DNA of 55,948 nucleotides from an uncultured Candidatus Peribacteria bacterium (GTDB taxonomy: Bacteria > Patescibacteriota > Gracilibacteria > Absconditabacterales > Absconditicoccaceae): positions 1 through 55,948 of the forward strand of contig CAZCTB010000065.1 in assembly GCA_964501605.1 (NCBI GenBank). Direction: 5' to 3'. Both the position numbers and the translations under genes were made by a program. The first letter of the stretch is position 1. Every line of letters begins with the position of its first letter. Below are positions 22,351 through 47,813 of the stretch, in pieces. Under the pieces are notes generated by a model, which searched no databases, had not been told where the DNA came from, and saw only the letters and a program-made list of their open reading frames with translations.

Positions 22351-23457
22351 ATGAAAATCTGAATTGTTTGACTTCCAAACGTATGAAAATCTACACTGTT
22401 TAATGCTTTGACCAACTCTTATTCTGCACCAGCAGAAAATTTCCCATTTTGTACTATAGAACCAAATGTGGGTATAGTGGATGTTAAAGATCCTAGGGTA
22501 GATAGTCTATCAGAAATATCAAAATCCAAAAAAACTATTTATGCAAATATAGAATTTGTAGATATAGCTGGATTGGTTCGTGGAGCAGGGAAGTGAGAGT
22601 GACTTTGAAACAAATTTTTGTCTTACATACGTGAAGTAGATACTGTTGTTCAAGTCTTACGTTATTTCAAGGACACAGATGTGGTACATGTTGAATGAGA
22701 AATTAATCCAATAAGAGATATTGAAATTATCAATACAGAATTAATTTTTTCAGATCTTGAAAAAATTGATAGATTACTTCCACCATTACAAAAAAAGGCT
22801 CAAACTACTTGAGACAAAAATTACAAAAAAGAAGCTGAAATATTGGAAAAAATAAAAACAACATTAGAACAAAATAAGCTTGCAAATAGCATTATCGATG
22901 ATTTATCCGACGAAGATATTAAATTAATCAAATCTTATTGATTTTTAACTATTAAACCCTTTATATATGCGATAAATATTGGTCAAGATGACATACCAAA
23001 CAAAGAACAGATTGAAAAAGAATTACAATCCAAAATAGATGCGCCAATAGTTTTGGTTTGTGCAAAGATAGAATCTGAGATGATGGGTATGTCCAAAGAT
23101 GAAAAAATAGAGTTTGTATCAGAACTACTTGAAATAGACAATGTAGATCATATCCCTACATTAGATGATTTGATTTCACTGGCTTTTGATACTGTTTGAT
23201 TGATGTATTATTTTACCACATGAGAAAAAGAGACTAGAGCATGGACAATAAAAAAGTGATCTACAGCTCCACAGGCAGCTTGAGCTATACATACAGATTT
23301 TGAAAAATGATTTATTAAAGCTGAAATAACAAAATACCAAGATTTTATAGATGCTTTATGACGATCAAAAGCAAAAGAGAAATGAAAAGTTAGACTTGAA
23401 TGAAAAGAATATATAGTACAAGATTGAGATATTATAGTTTTTAAATTTAATGTTTAA
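22351..23457 (+). CDS. ychF: Ribosome-binding ATPase YchF
   Basis: [21 protein letters not shown] (three Gly are TGA), [23 protein letters not shown], the TGS-like C-terminus [24 protein letters not shown]. 368 aa. Confidence 0.94.
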
Positions 23458-39090: not shown

Positions 39091-39429
39091 TTAAGAGTGA
39101 CGATGTCGTCAAGTTAGTTGTTTTCCTATCGTCTCCATATGTGGCTGAAGTGAAACAAACTCTTCTAAAGAAATACAGTGTAAATCTCTCATCAATCTCA
39201 ATAAAATATGGATCAATTCTGTTTTTCATCTAGCTGTATCAAGATATCTTTTTCTATCCTCACGTTGTGTGTTTGCTTTGAAAATAAGAATAACCAATTG
39301 AGACGTTTCCTCAAAAATACTCTTTCAAAGAGTATTTTTGTAGTTTTTTGGCATCTTTTTCAATAAACGACTAACTGTAAGCAGTAGTTTATAGCATTCT
39401 TTGTACAGAGGTAGTTCAGTGTATAGCAT
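39091..39429 (-). CDS. DGR accessory variability determinant (Avd-like four-helix-bundle protein), 112 aa
   Basis: MLYTELPLYKECYKLLLTVSRLLKKMPKNYKNTLGKSIFEETSQLVILIFKAN...ELIHILLRLMRDLHCISLEEFVSLQPHMETIGKQLTG. Starts 19 nt after the RT stop. Exactly 113 codons. Confidence 0.72.
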
Positions 39430-39448
39430 ATCGATAGTGTATAAAAGA

Positions 39449-40666
39449 CTAAAAGTATTCTAGTTTTTTTCGTGACTTAATTTCTGCTTTGCGTAGTCTT
39501 CTAGTGCGAGGTATGACTTTTGTATATTTGTTTTTGCATATTATCTTATTTGCTAAAAATGGTGGCAATGACTGTAGTACTTTCTTTCTAATTTTGTATG
39601 AACTGTGATGTTTTATCATCCCTAAGTATGAGTTGATCATTGCTATCACTTTTTGTAATTTTTCGTATGTGTTTACATCTTTTGACGTGATTTTGCGGAG
39701 CTTTTGTTGCCAACGTCAAAGAGCCTTCTTTTGTATATACGTGCGATATGGCTTTATCACAGCACCACAGAACTGTACTCATTTACTATAGTGTTGGAGA
39801 TATATTTTTTTTGGATGTAGTGTCAGCTGAAGCTCTTGACTAAGAAAATTTCTGATAGATACGATACATGACTGTAAATATTCTTTATCAGGATGTACTA
39901 ATACAAAATCATCCATATATCTTCAGTAGTGGTGTATTTTTAATACACGTTTGATATACATATCTAATTCATGGAGATATACGTTTGCAAATAGTTGGCT
40001 AGTGAGATTTCCAATAGGTAATCATACTCATGGTGAACTATGAAAAAGAGATTTATCAGGAGGAAGTCATGATCGATTATCTACTGATCATACATGTTTG
40101 TAATCTTGTGTGGGATCATGATAAATAACATCTTTTAAGAGTTTTTCTCAATAAGTATATGGTAAATATGGATATTCATTATCCCAGTAGTCTTTATATT
40201 TTTCAATTTCTTTTAATAAAAGCCTTTCTAATATTTTTTTATTTATAGCCATAAAATATCATTTGATATCTAGTTTTAATATATAACAATTTTGTTGATA
40301 ATTCTGAGAACATGATCTAATATGCTTGTCTATACGATTTACACCAAAATGTGTTCATTTTCCGACTCTGCATGCATAATTGTCGTATATAAAAATTCTT
40401 TCAAAAAAAGGTGAAATGATAGTATATATGAGATGATGTACGATGCGATCACGTACATGAGCAGCGAAAATTTCCCTTTGTACTGGATCATATATGATGA
40501 AACAACGATATGTACTGATACAATATGTTTGGTTTTCTAATTCTCTTGTTAGTTTCAGTAATTCTTTTTCATGTTCTAGTTCAAAAGCAAGAATGCTTTT
40601 TGTAGACTTATTGCATCTTAGATTTTTCCAAGCTATGAATACATGATATAATAAAGTACTTTTCAT
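39449..40666 (-). CDS. DGR reverse transcriptase (405 aa)
   Basis: IYDPVQREIFAAHVRDRIVHHLIY, YACRVGKGTH, GLPIGNLTSQLFANVYL (the SQ-containing motif typical of DGR RTs) and YGRYMDDFVLV (YxDD). Two ORF pieces are in frame and joined by TGA. Confidence 0.92.
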
Positions 40667-40772
40667 GGTATATATTAGAATAATATAAGGATTAGAGACT
40701 TATAAAATTTTATTAAAAAAAAGAGTAGACTATTTCAATAACCTACTCAATTTATTCATCTCTAAGCGTTTT

Positions 40773-45361: not shown

Positions 45362-46003
45362 TTATTTTAGATCTTTTATACCCCACACCTCATTATTCAT
45401 ATTTTCAAAAAAATCTACCATTATTTTGTGTTTTTTTTCAGCTAATTTTTTTCATGTTTTTGTAAACATCCTATCTTTTACTTTTTTTAATTTCACTTCA
45501 AATTCCCTGTATGCGGTGTCTTGAGGTCAATATTCTTTAGTGTTTTCTAGGTTTGTATCAATATCATTGTGTAGTTTTGCTCATACTTCATTTGCATACA
45601 TAAATGCTCTTCAAATTCAAACTGCTCATATACTGTCTAATTTATCTGCATCAAAAAGTATTTTAGCTTCTAAGCTCTCTGGTTCGTTTCATCTTCTAAA
45701 TCTATGTGTCATTATACAGTGTAATATTTTATTTTTCTTGCTATCTTCCATTCACAATTCAGACAAAATTTTGTCTGCCAATTTAGTTCCATATTCTGCA
45801 TGACATATTTTTCATTTAGTTTCGTGCTGTTTTTTCCTACCAATATCATGCATTAAGGATGATATTTGTAATATTTCTATATTTGCTCATTCTTTTTTTC
45901 ATATATGTAAACACATATCGTGTACTCTCATTGTATGATCTAGATCATGAGAATTGTTTCATCCAAAATATTTTTTTATTTTCTCTTTTATATGGTTTAA
46001 CAT
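45362..46003 (-). CDS. HD-domain metal-dependent phosphohydrolase
   Basis: HDLDHTMRVHDMCL, SSLMHDIGR, LHCIMTHRFR and ILFDADKLDSIGAVGIGRAF. 213 aa. Confidence 0.85.
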
Positions 46004-46342
46004 GCAATTATTAGTTAAACAAAAGTAAATTATAGACACATTTTTTTTATGGTTTTATGCTTGAATTTCAATGAGAATTATTTATATACATATCACCGCA
46101 ATTTTTGAGGACTATTTTTTTGAAAAATAGTAATTTAAAAAAACAAAACACTTGTTTGTACATAAAACGAAATGATCCCGAGTGATCTGGATTGTTTCTC
46201 ATTTTATATAGTGGAGAGGTGCCAGAGTGTGTCTAGATCATGCGAAAATAGCAAGCGCTAGCGTAGAAATTTTCGGATGAGAAAGTTATCCCGCAAAGCG
46301 GGAGTCGAAAAAGATATTTACGAAGCATCATTAATTTAAAGA

Positions 46343-46430
46343 GGAGAGGTGCCAGAGTGGTCGAACGGAGCTCACTGCTAACGAGTCGTCCTTTACGGGA
46401 CCGCGGGTTCGAATCCCGCCTTCTCCGCCA
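46343..46430 (+). tRNA. tRNA-Ser (anticodon GCU), CCA encoded
   Basis: GGAGAGG acceptor pairing with CTTCTCC, D-arm GCCAGAGTGGTCGAACGG, anticodon loop CT-GCT-AA, long variable arm CGTCCTTTACGGGACCG, T-arm GCGGGTTCGAATCCCGC, then GCCA. Confidence 0.88.
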
Positions 46431-46451
46431 TTAACATTTGCGATTACCAAT

Positions 46452-46505
46452 GGCTTTGTAGCTCAGTTGGTTAGAGCGCCCCGGTTCAAAGAACCGAGGG
46501 AAGTT
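46452..46505 (+). pseudogene. tRNA-like 5' fragment (copy A)
   Basis: The first 28 nt (ggctttgtagctcagttggttagagcgc) are identical to tRNA-Met at 46773. They are followed by a non-canonical 22-nt arm, ccccggttcaaagaaccgaggg, and no T-arm or acceptor 3' strand. Confidence 0.6.
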
Positions 46506-46536
46506 GGTAGTTCACATCTTAATTGTAGTATCTATA

Positions 46537-46782
46537 ATGATTAAGTGATTTGTTTATATATTGGAAATGAAAAATTGAAGATATTATATTTGAAGTACAA
46601 ACAATATAGAAAGAAGATTAGCAGAACATAATAGATGAATTGTAAAGTCCACAAAGAATAATAGACCATTAAAATTATTATTCAAAAAGGAATTTGAAGA
46701 TTATAGCTCTGCTTTAAAGAAAGAATTATCATTAAAAAAACAAAAAGACAGAAAGGCAGTAGAAAGATTTATGGCTTTGTAG
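46537..46782 (+). CDS. Small GIY-YIG nuclease-superfamily protein (81 aa)
   Basis: MIKGFVYILEMKNGRYYIGSTNNIERRLAEHNRG...NRPLKLLFKKEFEDYSSALKKELSLKKQKDRKAVERF. Its last four codons and TAG overlap the first 10 nt of tRNA-Met. Confidence 0.8.
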
Positions 46783-46846
46783 CTCAGTTGGTTAGAGCGC
46801 GCCTCTCATAAGGGCGAGGTCGGCGGTTCAAATCTGCCCAAAGCCA
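46773..46846 (+). tRNA. tRNA with CAU anticodon (elongator Met, or Ile2 if lysidine-modified); no encoded CCA
   Basis: GGCTTTG/CAAAGCC acceptor, GCTC-AGTTGGTTA-GAGC D-arm, CGCCT-CTCATAA-GGGCG anticodon arm, GGCGG-TTCAAAT-CTGCC T-arm. G1:C72 and the anticodon stem argue against an initiator. Confidence 0.85.
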
Positions 46847-46855
46847 AATTAAAAT

Positions 46856-46927
46856 GTTCAGTTGTTTAGAGCGTCCCGGTCTAAAGGACCGAGGAAGGTC
46901 GGGTTCTATTGGATTTGCCCAAAGCCA
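46856..46927 (+). pseudogene. Degenerate tRNA-like copy C (lacks the 5' acceptor strand; disrupted T-arm)
   Basis: gttcagttgtttagagcg + tcccggtctaaaggaccgagga + aggtcgggttctattggatttgcccaaagcca. The last 18 nt plus flank repeat the 3' end of tRNA-Met. Confidence 0.6.
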
Positions 46928-47115
46928 AATTAAGTTAAAAGTCAAACGTTTATAAGGTTTAAAGTTAATCTTATCTTACAAACTTTAAACTTAATAACTT
47001 TTAACTACATTAGTAGTCATTCGTAAAAAATATTTTATTATTCAAAACTTTATGAGTCAGAGTTTTGATAGTAATTACAACAAAAAATTATTTTAGATTA
47101 TTCAGAACCTTTATT

Positions 47116-47289
47116 ATGGCAAAAAAGAAAGGATGAAGAGTTACAGTAGCAATGCAATGTTCTATTTGTAAAAAAGTGAATTATTTCACTAGTATAAACA
47201 AAGCTATTACACCAAAATTAGAACAAAACAAATACTGTAAACAATGTAAAAAACACACACTACACAAATCTAGAGAAAAACTTAAATAA
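47116..47289 (+). CDS. rpmG: 50S ribosomal protein L33
   Basis: MAKKKGGRVTVAMQCSICKKVNYFTSINK...YCKQCKKHTLHKSREKLK. 57 aa with the CxxC...CxxC pattern. Confidence 0.9.
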
Positions 47290-47327
47290 TTCTCTATTTT
47301 TCATTTTAATATGTAAAATTATACTAA

Positions 47328-47813
47328 ATGTTGAAGATAAGATTAGCCAGACATGGTAGAAAAAAAGCTCCATTTTATCGTATTGTACTTACTGAGCACA
47401 CAAAACCAGCGCAATCTGGTTATAAATTAGTTTTATGACGATTTAATCCATTATCTCATACTATAGAGGCAAATGTAGAAGCAATAAAATGATGGATTGC
47501 AAAATGAGCACAACTTTCAGAGAGAGTAGCTAAACTACTTTTTGCTGAAACAAAAGACAAAATGTTTAAAGAATTTTTTGTAGAAAGAGAAAGAACAAAA
47601 TGAAAAGCAAAAGAACAAGAGAAAAAAGAAGATGCTGAAGCAAAAGTAAAAGAAGCAAAAGAAAAAGCTGAGGCTGCAAAAGTAGAGGAAGAACAAAAAA
47701 AGGCAGAAGAAGCTAATGAAGAAAAAGTAGAGAAAAAGACAGAGGAAGTTAAGGAAGAAACAACAAATGATTCACCAGAAGAAAAGAAAGAAGAAGAAAA
47801 TAAAAAAAATTAA
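47328..47813 (+). CDS. rpsP: 30S ribosomal protein S16 with a K/E-rich C-terminal extension
   Basis: MLKIRLARHGRKKAPFYRIVLTEH...LG-[CGA]-FNPLS...WIAKGAQLSERVAKLL. Confidence 0.9.

What the first reader, a model, noticed from the sequence alone, without database searches (positions are those of the whole stretch)
46452..46933. GIY-YIG nuclease gene wedged into a duplicated tRNA gene
An 81-aa GIY-YIG protein gene (46537-46782) is flanked by two identical 28-nt copies of the 5' part of a tRNA, ggctttgtagctcagttggttagagcgc, at 46452-46479 and 46773-46800. The downstream copy continues as an intact tRNA(CAU). The upstream copy is a stump. The nuclease ORF ends (..F M A L stop) inside the first 10 nt of the intact tRNA. 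A third, 5'-truncated degenerate copy follows at 46856-46927, and the tRNA 3' end plus flank (tgcccaaagccaaattaa) is also duplicated (46835-46852 and 46916-46933). This is the footprint expected if a nuclease-encoding selfish cassette invaded or copied itself at a tRNA gene with partial target duplication. Small stand-alone GIY-YIG genes are usually annotated as housekeeping unknowns, so a clear mobility scar is informative.
Basis: partly seen in the sequence, partly recalled or inferred. Interest (0 to 1): 0.65.

Follow-up and report, generated by a model that had tools for sequence, protein, structure and literature searches.

The report
tRNA-linked GIY-YIG nuclease cassette
A tiny nuclease gene sits between a working tRNA gene and broken copies of that tRNA whose anticodon arm has been swapped for a conserved hairpin; the same layout recurs at about ten different tRNA genes in several bacterial phyla, so it looks like an undescribed kind of tRNA-associated selfish DNA.

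Summary
The window comes from an Absconditabacterales (SR1) genome that reads TGA as glycine. Under that code, 46537-46782 is an intact 81-aa GIY-YIG gene whose TAG stop is nt 8-10 of tRNA(CAU).

The flanking tRNA pieces are not passive scars. In stump A and stump C the 17-nt anticodon arm is replaced by a conserved bulged hairpin. Stump A's 5' part stays identical to the tRNA.

Relatives keep the same locus, and the GIY and S16 trees agree. The gene is under purifying selection (dN/dS about 0.1-0.25). Clean "empty" tRNA-Ser/tRNA(CAU)/rpmG sites are interspersed among filled ones.

The same module (stump, hairpin, small GIY-YIG gene, intact tRNA) occurs at Thr, Leu, Ile, Ala, Glu, Phe and Pro tRNA genes in other phyla. 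Most of those hairpins share a CCGA...TCGG core. In Chitinophagaceae-type contigs the module forms tandem arrays of varying copy number.

Best reading: an ancient, vertically kept member of a tRNA-gene-associated selfish nuclease family, working like phage SegB, where breaks in tRNA genes lead to recombination, duplication and loss. Nuclease activity, target and hairpin role are inferred. I found no description of this in six literature searches.

The parts
46213..46309 (+). Upstream stump of tRNA-Ser. It has 17 nt identical to tRNA-Ser nt 1-17 (46213-46229 = 46343-46359), then a 59-nt insert, the hairpin TCCCGCAAAGCGGGA (46289-46303), and a T-loop-like GTCGAA ending at 46309.
   Evidence: (repeat D3). 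The stump is absent at the same place in L001, L005 and L023. The 113-nt insert has no other copy in the window or in the fetched loci.
46343..46430 (+). Intact tRNA-Ser(GCU).
   Evidence: ARAGORN; Rfam tRNA 43.7 bits.
46450..46479 (+). Direct repeat copy 1: 'AT' plus tRNA(CAU) nt 1-28. This is the 5' part of stump A.
   Evidence: 100% identical to 46771-46800.
46452..46519 (+). Stump A ('A-type'). It has the acceptor 5' strand and D arm, a hairpin in place of the anticodon arm, a decayed variable loop and T-stem, and a T-loop remnant GTTCACATCT (46510-46519). There is no acceptor 3' strand.
46479..46500 (+). Hairpin A, CCCCGGTT-CAAAG-AACCG(A)GGG, with a bulged A and dG -11.9 kcal/mol. It replaces the 17-nt anticodon stem-loop.
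   Evidence: It is conserved in L001 and L005.
46537..46782 (+). GIY-YIG nuclease gene, 81 aa under genetic code 25. It is a minimal Slx1-like/UPF0213-type catalytic domain. The stop TAG is tRNA nt 8-10.
   Evidence: Pfam 66.6 bits. Best PDB matches are 1ywl and 1zg2. Y17, R27, H31 and E63 are invariant in the family alignment. dN/dS is 0.08-0.25.
46773..46846 (+). Intact resident tRNA with anticodon CAU. ARAGORN calls it Met; a lysidine-type Ile2 tRNA is not excluded.
   Evidence: 67.4 bits.
46857..46927 (+). Stump C ('C-type'). It starts in the D arm (TTCAG...), has a hairpin in place of the anticodon arm, a T arm with a deletion, and an intact acceptor 3' strand and discriminator.
46874..46895 (+). 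Hairpin C, TCCCGGTC-TAAAG-GACCG(A)GGA, dG -11.2 kcal/mol. Relative to hairpin A it carries a compensatory T-A to C-G change.
46913..46933 (+). Duplicate of the tRNA 3' end plus 7-nt flank. It matches 46832-46852.
   Evidence: repeat D4, 95% identity.

Best explanation
Region 46213-46933 is a tRNA-Ser/tRNA(CAU) operon occupied by one member of a widespread family of tRNA-gene-associated nuclease cassettes.

The repeating unit of the family is a minimal stand-alone GIY-YIG nuclease gene (about 80 aa, Slx1-like/UPF0213 type) joined to a tRNA-derived arm. In that arm the anticodon stem-loop is replaced by a conserved hairpin.

A crossover between the arm and a resident tRNA gene on the 5' side of the hairpin gives [5'-intact stump A]-GIY-[intact tRNA]. 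That is the layout here. A crossover on the 3' side gives [intact tRNA]-GIY-[3'-intact stump C], the layout in L007, L008, L015, L037 and L048. Exactly one functional tRNA always survives.

By analogy with phage T4/T6 SegB, the nuclease is inferred to break DNA inside tRNA genes. The stump breakpoints fall in the conserved D-loop and T-loop blocks. Repair by homologous recombination would then do four things:
- copy the cassette into empty alleles;
- generate partial and tandem duplications;
- keep stump flanks identical to the tRNA by gene conversion;
- allow clean loss through the 30-nt and 21-nt direct repeats.

The hairpin is inferred to be a cassette-borne functional element, most simply a binding or recognition site for the nuclease, or a site that keeps non-essential tRNA copies from being cut or used.

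In this SR1 lineage the cassette is old, vertically inherited and still selected. It is not a recent invasion.

Shown: anatomy, synteny, empty sites, purifying selection, concerted evolution, hairpin conservation and covariation, recurrence at other tRNAs, and arrays of varying copy number.

Inferred: nuclease activity and target, the recombination route, and the hairpin's role.
For: Anatomy and identity of the gene.

Presence/absence. There are 18 loci without the cassette, and those with enough downstream sequence show the same tRNA-Ser/tRNA(CAU)/rpmG/rpsP synteny. Filled and empty sites are interspersed on the S16 tree. L026 and L030 keep C stumps without the gene.

Recurrence. Every relative of at least 40% identity matched over nearly its whole length lies within about 60 nt of a tRNA or tRNA-like unit, with hairpin stumps:
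- tRNA(CAU) in 9 distinct SR1 loci;
- Thr-CGU (L014, L016);
- Leu-UAA (L015, L052-61);
- Ile-GAU (L037);
- Ala-GGC (L038, L050);
- Glu-CUC (L039);
- Phe-GAA (L048);
- Pro-UGG (L062).
Sources.

Hairpin. It lies exactly between TAGAGCG and AGGTC in every stump and never in the intact tRNA. 24 of 31 hairpins share a CCGA...TCGG core, and the flanking pairs covary and are always Watson-Crick.

Concerted evolution. C stumps match their own tRNA 0/30 in L007, L008, L009, L011 and L012, while resident tRNAs differ by 1-12 of 30 between lineages. Stump A in the window matches 30/30.

Functional gene. dN/dS is 0.08-0.25 and the catalytic residues are invariant.

Segmental amplification. L007 has two GIY copies. 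Chitinophagaceae-type contigs carry 1 to at least 4 tandem units of 346 bp at the same locus in different samples.

Precedent. SegB cuts inside tRNA genes at a T-loop motif and drives recombination-dependent amplification of segB plus tRNA (PMC13096335).
Against: - Within SR1 the gene tree agrees with the host tree, the locus is always the same, and I found no second copy at another tRNA. So there is no direct evidence of movement in this lineage; repeated loss alone explains the empty sites.
- An 81-aa protein has no DNA-binding domain, so sequence-specific homing is not obviously possible.
- The intact tRNA persists next to the nuclease, which is awkward if the tRNA gene is the target.
- No close relative was found in 50,697 phage records. 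IMG/VR gave only two partial 35% protein matches and one contig (L062) carrying the module. No vector for transfer is known.
- More distant relatives lack an adjacent tRNA: L017/L018 at 41-43% identity over a partial match, and L042-45 at 42% identity.
- No cleavage, binding or transcript data exist.
Confidence: 0.55

Rival explanations
1. Domesticated or neutral resident. The GIY-YIG gene is an ordinary, vertically inherited small gene of the tRNA operon, for example a structure-specific repair nuclease like Slx1. The stumps are by-products of unequal recombination among tRNA repeats. Nothing at this locus is or was mobile, and the empty sites are simple losses.
For: - Same locus in all SR1 relatives.
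- GIY and S16 trees agree.
- dN/dS is 0.08-0.25.
- The closest solved structures are the housekeeping-type UPF0213 proteins.
- Dunin-Horkawicz 2006 regards prokaryotic Slx1-like proteins as mostly vertically inherited.
Against: - It does not explain why relatives at 40-57% identity sit at eight other tRNA species in other phyla with the same stump and hairpin design, down to the CCGA...TCGG core.
- It does not explain why the gene is dispensable in many close relatives.
- It does not explain the 346-bp unit that varies in copy number between samples.
Confidence: 0.25
2. RNA-level function. The stumps are tRNA-like cis elements of a polycistronic tRNA/mRNA transcript. The closed hairpin keeps a tRNA-like fold that directs or blocks RNase P/Z/E processing, stabilises the short mRNA, or lets the protein regulate its own message. 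Placing the stop codon inside the tRNA couples translation to tRNA processing. This can coexist with the main explanation.
For: - All units lie on one strand and no terminator-like site is predicted in the region.
- Compensatory changes, G-T pairs on the sense strand and a conserved bulge point to a folded single strand rather than a duplex palindrome.
- The stop codon lies in invariant tRNA triplets (nt 8-10, or the D-arm TAG) in many lineages.
- L008 stump C keeps acceptor and D stems through C-to-T changes that give G-U pairs.
Against: - Stumps lack one acceptor strand, so they are not RNase P/Z substrates as such.
- C-only and A-only stumps persist without any nuclease gene next to them (L026, L030, the tRNA-Ser stump).
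- Several relatives end the ORF before the tRNA (L014, L038).
- No transcript data exist.
Confidence: 0.2
3. Leftover attachment sites of integrase-type islands or prophages that once integrated into these tRNA genes.
For: Partial tRNA duplicates next to an intact tRNA are the classical signature of integrating elements (bioRxiv 10.1101/2022.07.05.498093).
Against: - There is no integrase. The neighbours are an HD-domain gene, rpmG and rpsP.
- The 'insert' is 321 bp.
- The main duplicate is the 5' part of the tRNA.
- The anticodon arm is replaced by the same hairpin in unrelated phyla.
Confidence: 0.02
4. Chance similarity or an assembly artefact of a repetitive tRNA region.
For: Repeats can be mis-assembled. 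L007 contains a run of N, and many Chitinophagaceae contigs break at this locus.
Against: - The same arrangement appears in independent assemblies from NCBI, ENA, JGI and Logan.
- A 30-nt exact repeat and a 20-nt hairpin pattern have 0 matches expected by chance.
- Orthologous stumps are conserved across WIN, L001 and L005.
Confidence: 0.01

Closest known systems
Phage T4/T6 SegB, a free-standing GIY-YIG homing endonuclease in the tRNA gene cluster (PMC2330249; PMC13096335)
   Same: - It is a GIY-YIG nuclease gene embedded among tRNA genes.
- It cuts inside tRNA genes, with a motif matching the T-loop.
- It causes recombination-dependent segmental amplification of nuclease plus tRNA, including truncated copies.
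- Its homologues are enriched next to tRNAs of many isotypes.
   Different: - SegB is about 220 aa with a DNA-binding part, and is phage-borne.
- This protein is 81 aa (catalytic domain only), chromosomal, and of the Slx1-like/UPF0213 clade. Matches to homing-endonuclease models are weak (NCBIfam 26.3 bits against a cut-off of 56).
- The sections of the SegB paper I read do not mention hairpin-substituted tRNA stumps.
Prokaryotic Slx1-like / UPF0213 stand-alone GIY-YIG proteins (EF2693 1ywl, BH0048 1zg2; the E. coli YhbQ type)
   Same: Best sequence matches among solved structures (E about 1e-7). Same size and the same minimal domain.
   Different: Those proteins are treated as housekeeping proteins of unknown function, with suggested roles in repair. 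The classification paper reports no link to tRNA genes or to repeats.
Integrase-mediated islands and prophages in tRNA genes
   Same: One intact and one partial tRNA copy flank the inserted DNA as direct repeats.
   Different: Those are kilobase elements with a tyrosine or serine recombinase, and they usually duplicate the 3' part. Here the insert is 321 bp, there is no recombinase, both 5' and 3' stumps are present, and the anticodon arm is replaced by a hairpin.
Group I introns with GIY-YIG homing endonucleases in tRNA anticodon loops
   Same: The heterology sits exactly at the anticodon arm of a tRNA-like sequence, next to a GIY-YIG gene.
   Different: There is no ribozyme: Rfam gave no intron hit at E<=10. 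The functional tRNA is uninterrupted, and the 'insert' in the stumps is a 16-28-nt hairpin.
Hairpin-ended elements (IS200/IS605, REP/RAYT) and OMEGA (TnpB/IscB) RNA-guided homing
   Same: They have conserved, sometimes bulged hairpins at element borders. In OMEGA, an element-encoded RNA directs a small nuclease to the empty site.
   Different: Those use HUH or RuvC-type enzymes. There is no evidence here for single-strand transposition or RNA guidance. This is an analogy only.

Membership tests
GIY-YIG nuclease superfamily | Match to the GIY-YIG catalytic domain model above the curated threshold. | tested here: met
   PF01541 scores 66.6 bits against a cut-off of 22.6, covering residues 3-72.
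GIY-YIG nuclease superfamily | Catalytic residues: Tyr of 'GIY', Tyr of 'YIG', Arg, His and Glu. | tested here: met
   The motifs are FVY(7) and YYIG(17). Y17, R27, H31 and E63 are invariant in 23 relatives, and Y7 is at least 90% conserved.
Prokaryotic Slx1-like / UPF0213 clade | Stand-alone minimal domain, closest to 1ywl/1zg2, without the C-terminal Asn of the UvrC/I-TevI lineage. | tested here: met
   Best PDB hits are 1ywl (9e-08) and 1zg2 (2.9e-07); I-TevI scores 0.069 and SLX1 0.3-1. No conserved Asn follows E63. The definition is taken from PMC1564403.
Free-standing homing endonuclease gene | Presence/absence polymorphism of the gene at an otherwise homologous locus. | tested here: met
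   18 empty loci; filled and empty sites are interspersed on the S16 tree.
Free-standing homing endonuclease gene | Site-specific cleavage of the allele that lacks the gene, followed by copying of the gene. | not testable with these tools
   This needs enzyme assays or crosses. Within SR1 the gene tree follows the host tree, so no transfer is visible.
Free-standing homing endonuclease gene | A DNA-binding module that recognises a long target. | tested here: not met
   The protein is 81 aa, and the whole length is the catalytic domain.
SegB / Seg-type phage endonucleases | Sequence membership in Seg or group-I-intron endonuclease models. | tested here: not met
   TIGR01453 scores 26.3 bits against a cut-off of 56.05. 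PHROG homing-endonuclease families match only at E of 1e-5 to 1e-6 over the catalytic core.
tRNA (for stumps A and C) | Cloverleaf with both acceptor strands and a 7-nt anticodon loop, scored by tRNA finders. | tested here: not met
   ARAGORN does not call them down to -ps80, and Rfam tRNA gives no hit at E<=10. Stump A lacks the 3' strand, stump C lacks the 5' strand, and both have a closed hairpin.
Integrase-type integrative element at a tRNA gene | A recombinase gene and kilobase-sized cargo between the direct repeats. | tested here: not met
   There are 321 bp between the repeats, holding only the GIY-YIG gene. The neighbours are HD, L33 and S16.
Group I intron in a tRNA gene | A ribozyme core interrupting the anticodon loop. 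| tested here: not met
   Rfam gave no intron family at E<=10 over 45900-47400, and the intact tRNA is continuous.

The most novel reading that the evidence does not exclude
The hairpin-bearing tRNA-like stumps are working partners of the nuclease rather than debris. The conserved CCGA...TCGG hairpin would be the handle bound by the 81-aa GIY-YIG protein. The flanking segments are kept identical to the resident tRNA, and as RNA or as folded single-stranded DNA they would supply the specificity that the domain-less protein lacks. That would make this a nucleic-acid-guided or structure-guided GIY-YIG nuclease that targets tRNA genes, comparable in logic to TnpB/IscB OMEGA systems.
Probability: 0.07. 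Interest if true: 0.95.

Novelty: new variant of a known kind. Interest (0 to 1): 0.72.

Why it matters
Stand-alone UPF0213/Slx1-like GIY-YIG proteins are common in bacteria and have had no assigned role since they were first catalogued. This result shows that at least one clade of them is tied physically to tRNA genes in four or more phyla. The tie has a defined architecture: one intact tRNA, stumps whose anticodon arm is replaced by a conserved hairpin, and frequent borrowing of a tRNA TAG as the stop codon.

That turns "function unknown" into testable questions:
- Does the protein cut tRNA genes or the hairpin?
- Does it drive duplication, homogenisation and loss of tRNA-linked DNA in cells, as SegB does in phage?

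It also matters for annotation. The stumps can be called as odd tRNAs (L013 'Val-GAC', L037 'tRNA-???'). The gene is invisible unless code 25 is used.

Cultured carriers exist (Terrimonas), so experiments are feasible.

Tried and rejected
- ARAGORN at relaxed thresholds and with introns, and Rfam at E<=10, did not score stumps A or C as tRNA or as any known RNA. A weak YrlA hit (24.9 bits against a gathering score of 69) only reflects tRNA-like D and T segments.
- The first profile for locus search failed because it was too divergent. A narrower one worked.
- The staggered-cut target-site-duplication idea was rejected. Stump A extends past nt 28 into hairpin and T-loop sequence. The segment TTTCAAAT(C/A)TTAA after it is conserved with the cassette even where the resident T-loop is TTCGAGT.
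- Phage origin: there are no close relatives in INPHARED. IMG/VR gave two partial 35% matches, and one 'viral' contig (L062) carries the module at tRNA-Pro.
- Promoter scan: the best hit (11/12) uses the T-loop remnant TTCACA (46511) as the -35 box and TATAAT (ending 46538) as the -10 box. The -10 box overlaps the ATG, so this promoter cannot serve the full ORF. I treat it as unproven.
- The 113-nt insert in the tRNA-Ser stump has no other copy in the window or the fetched loci.
- Six full-text literature searches found SegB and general work on tRNA fragments, but nothing on this architecture. The library is incomplete, so absence is not proof.
- My first mismatch table had an off-by-one error and was redone.
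Full report
**1.

The window is 26.9% G+C and uses genetic code 25. In the YchF ORF (22351-23457), 15 of 18 in-frame TGA align with glycine of H. influenzae YchF (PDB 1jal), including the P-loop glycines. The nearest relatives of the nuclease are annotated as Absconditabacterales (SR1).

Under this code, 46537-46782 is an intact 81-aa ORF. It has four TGA, so the table-11 ORF list misses it. It scores 66.6 bits on Pfam GIY-YIG with Gly at the TGA positions and 50.7 bits with Trp.

ARAGORN and Rfam find tRNA-Ser(GCU) at 46343-46430 and tRNA(CAU) at 46773-46846. The stop codon TAG (46780-46782) is tRNA nt 8-10.

The direct repeat is 30 nt long and exact: 46450-46479 = 46771-46800. The 3' repeat is 21 nt at 95%: 46832-46852 versus 46913-46933.

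Neither stump A (46452-46519) nor stump C (46857-46927) scores as a tRNA, even at relaxed settings.

**2.

Stumps A and C share a 45-nt middle part at 82% identity. In both, the 17-nt anticodon stem-loop is replaced by a bulged hairpin:
- A: CCCCGGTT-CAAAG-AACCG(A)GGG, 46479-46500
- C: TCCCGGTC-TAAAG-GACCG(A)GGA, 46874-46895

The folding energies are about -11 to -12 kcal/mol. The two differ by a compensatory T-A to C-G change. The pattern occurs only at these two places in 56 kb, with 0 matches expected by chance.

tRNA-Ser has a stump of the same design. Its first 17 nt are repeated at 46213-46229, followed by an insert, the hairpin TCCCGCAAAGCGGGA (46289-46303) and a T-loop-like GTCGAA. This stump is absent from the closest relatives.

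**3. Relatives: an old resident, not a fresh scar**

Proteins 79-85% identical lie in the same context in independent assemblies: HD gene, tRNA-Ser, stump A, GIY-YIG, tRNA(CAU), stump C, rpmG, rpsP.

A scan of species-representative genomes gave eight further distinct SR1 or 'Peribacteria'-labelled loci (L005, L007-L012; L006 is the same contig as L001). All have the gene between tRNA-Ser and rpmG.

The GIY-YIG tree agrees with the S16 tree. Pairwise dN/dS is 0.08-0.25. So the gene is functional and has been inherited vertically for a long time.

**4. Empty sites exist**

I scanned metagenomes for a tRNA-Ser 3' end followed within 3-33 nt by an intact tRNA(CAU). This gave 18 loci:
- None has a GIY-YIG ORF in the next 1.6 kb.
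- 16 have no stump at all.
- Those with enough downstream sequence continue into rpmG and rpsP (15 have an rpsP match).
- L023 is a relative of the window (about 90% identity around tRNA-Ser, 80% in rpmG) and has a clean empty site.
- L026 (84% identical to filled L008) and L030 keep C-type stumps without the gene.

On the S16 tree, filled and empty loci are interspersed. With congruent trees, repeated loss is sufficient to explain this. The 30-nt and 21-nt direct repeats give an obvious route to precise loss.

**5. The stumps are maintained**

In several lineages the C stumps are identical to their own resident tRNA over the last 30 nt (0/30 mismatches in L007, L008, L009, L011, L012). The resident tRNAs of different lineages differ by 1-12 of 30 in that same stretch. 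L010's lineage-specific AGGCC variable loop is shared by its tRNA and its stumps.

In the window, stump A is 30/30 identical to the tRNA on the 5' side of the hairpin. The hairpin itself is conserved across WIN, L001 and L005, but the variable-loop/T-stem part between the hairpin and the T-loop remnant has decayed.

So the flanks evolve in concert with the tRNA and the hairpin is kept. This is not the behaviour of a neutral scar.

**6. The same design at other tRNAs and in other phyla**

Relatives at 40-57% identity sit within about 60 nt of a tRNA:

| tRNA | Locus | Source |
|---|---|---|
| Thr-CGU | L014, L016 | Verrucomicrobiota |
| Leu-UAA | L015, L052-61 | Terrimonas; Chitinophagaceae-type contigs |
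| Ile-GAU | L037 | Patescibacteria |
| Ala-GGC | L038, L050 | (not labelled) |
| Glu-CUC | L039 | Patescibacteria |
| Phe-GAA | L048 | (not labelled) |
| Pro-UGG | L062 | G+C-rich IMG/VR contig |

In each locus there is one intact tRNA. Upstream copies keep the 5' end and stop in or near the T-loop. Downstream copies start in the D arm and keep the 3' end and its flank. Every stump has a hairpin exactly where the anticodon arm should be.

24 of 31 hairpins share the core CCGA...TCGG. The pairs flanking the core covary (T-A, C-G, G-C) and are always Watson-Crick. A second palindrome, CCTGCCTG..CAGGCAGG, sits in the D-loop position in both a Patescibacteria locus and the Terrimonas locus.

Two arrangements occur:
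- [stump A]-GIY-[tRNA], as in the window;
- [tRNA]-GIY-[stump C].

These are the two products expected from a crossover between a hairpin-bearing tRNA-like arm and the resident tRNA, on the 5' or the 3' side of the hairpin.

The ORF often takes its stop codon from invariant tRNA triplets. It uses nt 8-10 in the window and L050, and the D-arm TAG in L007, L015, L037, L039 and L048.

In Chitinophagaceae-type contigs the 346-bp unit [GIY + stump] is repeated one to at least four times after tRNA-Leu. Different samples carry different copy numbers at the same locus. L007 has two tandem GIY copies.

**7. What it resembles**

By sequence, the protein belongs with the stand-alone Slx1-like/UPF0213 proteins (1ywl, 1zg2). 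Dunin-Horkawicz et al. describe these as the minimal GIY-YIG form with no assigned role (PMC1564403).

By behaviour, the closest known system is phage SegB. SegB is a GIY-YIG endonuclease in the T-even tRNA cluster. It cuts inside tRNA genes at a motif matching the T-loop. It drives recombination-dependent segmental amplification of segB plus tRNA, and its homologues are enriched next to tRNAs of many isotypes (PMC2330249; PMC13096335).

The present protein is not a SegB family member. It lacks any DNA-binding domain.

Known sources of tRNA gene fragments are integrating elements and CRISPR spacers. Neither fits here: there is no recombinase, the insert is 321 bp, and the hairpin substitution is unexplained by them.

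**8. Most likely mechanism**

The cassette unit is the nuclease gene plus a tRNA-like arm carrying the hairpin. The inferred steps are:
1. The nuclease breaks tRNA-gene DNA at the conserved D-loop and T-loop blocks, where the stump breakpoints fall.
2. Homologous repair between arm and tRNA produces the two observed layouts.
3. The same repair produces duplications, arrays, homogenised flanks and clean losses.

The hairpin is conserved in sequence across phyla and travels with the gene. It is most simply a site recognised by the protein, or a device that keeps spare tRNA copies inert.

An RNA-level role in processing or regulating the short mRNA within a tRNA transcript is a compatible rival. 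Sense-strand G-T pairs and the conserved bulge favour a folded single strand.

For this SR1 lineage specifically, the data show persistence, rearrangement and loss, not recent movement.

**9. Verdict**

It is wrong in treating the repeats as a simple, informative recent scar.
- The architecture appears undescribed in six full-text searches, but the library is incomplete.
- I class it as a new variant of a known kind (tRNA-associated GIY-YIG selfish elements).
- Interest is 0.72.

Noticed in passing
whole window; tested on 22351-23457 and 46537-46782: The genome reads TGA as glycine (genetic code 25, SR1/Gracilibacteria type). 15 of 18 TGA in YchF align to Gly of a solved homologue. Nearly all long ORFs carry many in-frame TGA, so any table-11 gene call in this window is fragmented.
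   Followed up: yes
window 46213-46342: tRNA-Ser has its own upstream stump: 17 nt identical to its 5' end, a 59-nt insert, the hairpin TCCCGCAAAGCGGGA and a T-loop-like GTCGAA. There is no nuclease gene between stump and tRNA. It is absent in L001, L005 and L023. Its hairpin resembles the TCCCGA..TCGGGA type of other SR1 lineages more than this genome's own hairpin.
   Followed up: partly
window 46928-47012: An imperfect A+T-rich inverted repeat of about 80 nt (predicted dG -17.4 kcal/mol) lies between stump C and the rpmG upstream region. It is conserved in L001 and L005. The corresponding stretch is missing in the empty-site relative L023.
   Followed up: partly
window 46511-46538: The best sigma-70-like match in the region (11 of 12) uses the T-loop remnant of stump A (TTCACA) as the -35 box and TATAAT as the -10 box. 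The -10 box overlaps the ATG of the nuclease gene.
   Followed up: partly
window 39091-40699, minus strand: A reverse transcriptase (Pfam RVT_1, 55 bits) is followed by a bAvd-like four-helix-bundle protein (41 bits). This is the gene pair typical of a diversity-generating retroelement. I did not look for template or variable repeats.
   Followed up: partly
L052-L061 (for example L053 1-1380, L056): Chitinophagaceae-type metagenome contigs carry, after tRNA-Gly and tRNA-Leu(UAA), tandem arrays of one to at least four diverged GIY-YIG genes. Each gene is followed by a 5'-truncated tRNA-Leu copy with the hairpin GCCCCGATTTAATCGGGGT and a terminator-like stem. The period is 346 bp, and copy number differs between samples at the same locus.
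   Followed up: partly
L051 1462-1665: A tRNA-like gene (GCCCCCATAGCTTAGCGG...TGGGGGCA) has a complete second tRNA inserted in its D-loop, flanked by 20-nt inverted repeats. The inner tRNA has anticodon UUA, which ARAGORN calls 'tRNA-Stop'. It lies just downstream of a GIY-YIG gene of the same family.
   Followed up: no
L039 1475-1494 and L015 2134-2153 / 2263-2282: A second palindrome, CCTGCCTG(NN)CGGCAGGCAGG, occupies the D-loop position of upstream stumps in a Patescibacteria locus (tRNA-Glu) and in Terrimonas (tRNA-Leu). A related GCCTGCCGCAGGCA occurs near the locus in L030.
   Followed up: partly
L013 2419-2495; L008 2800-2885: Full-length hairpin-type tRNA-like units exist. L013 is called tRNA-Val(GAC) by ARAGORN, but its 'anticodon arm' CCCCGATGACATCGGGG is the family hairpin with a 3-nt loop. 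L008 stump C keeps acceptor and D stems through C-to-T changes that give G-U pairs.
   Followed up: no
L007 1695-1795; L030 downstream of the stump: Long A+T-rich inverted-repeat elements (..ACAGTTAACAGATAA.. / ..TTATTAGTTATTCACTGTTAG..) sit next to the tRNA locus in two SR1-type contigs. They may be small non-autonomous mobile elements.
   Followed up: no
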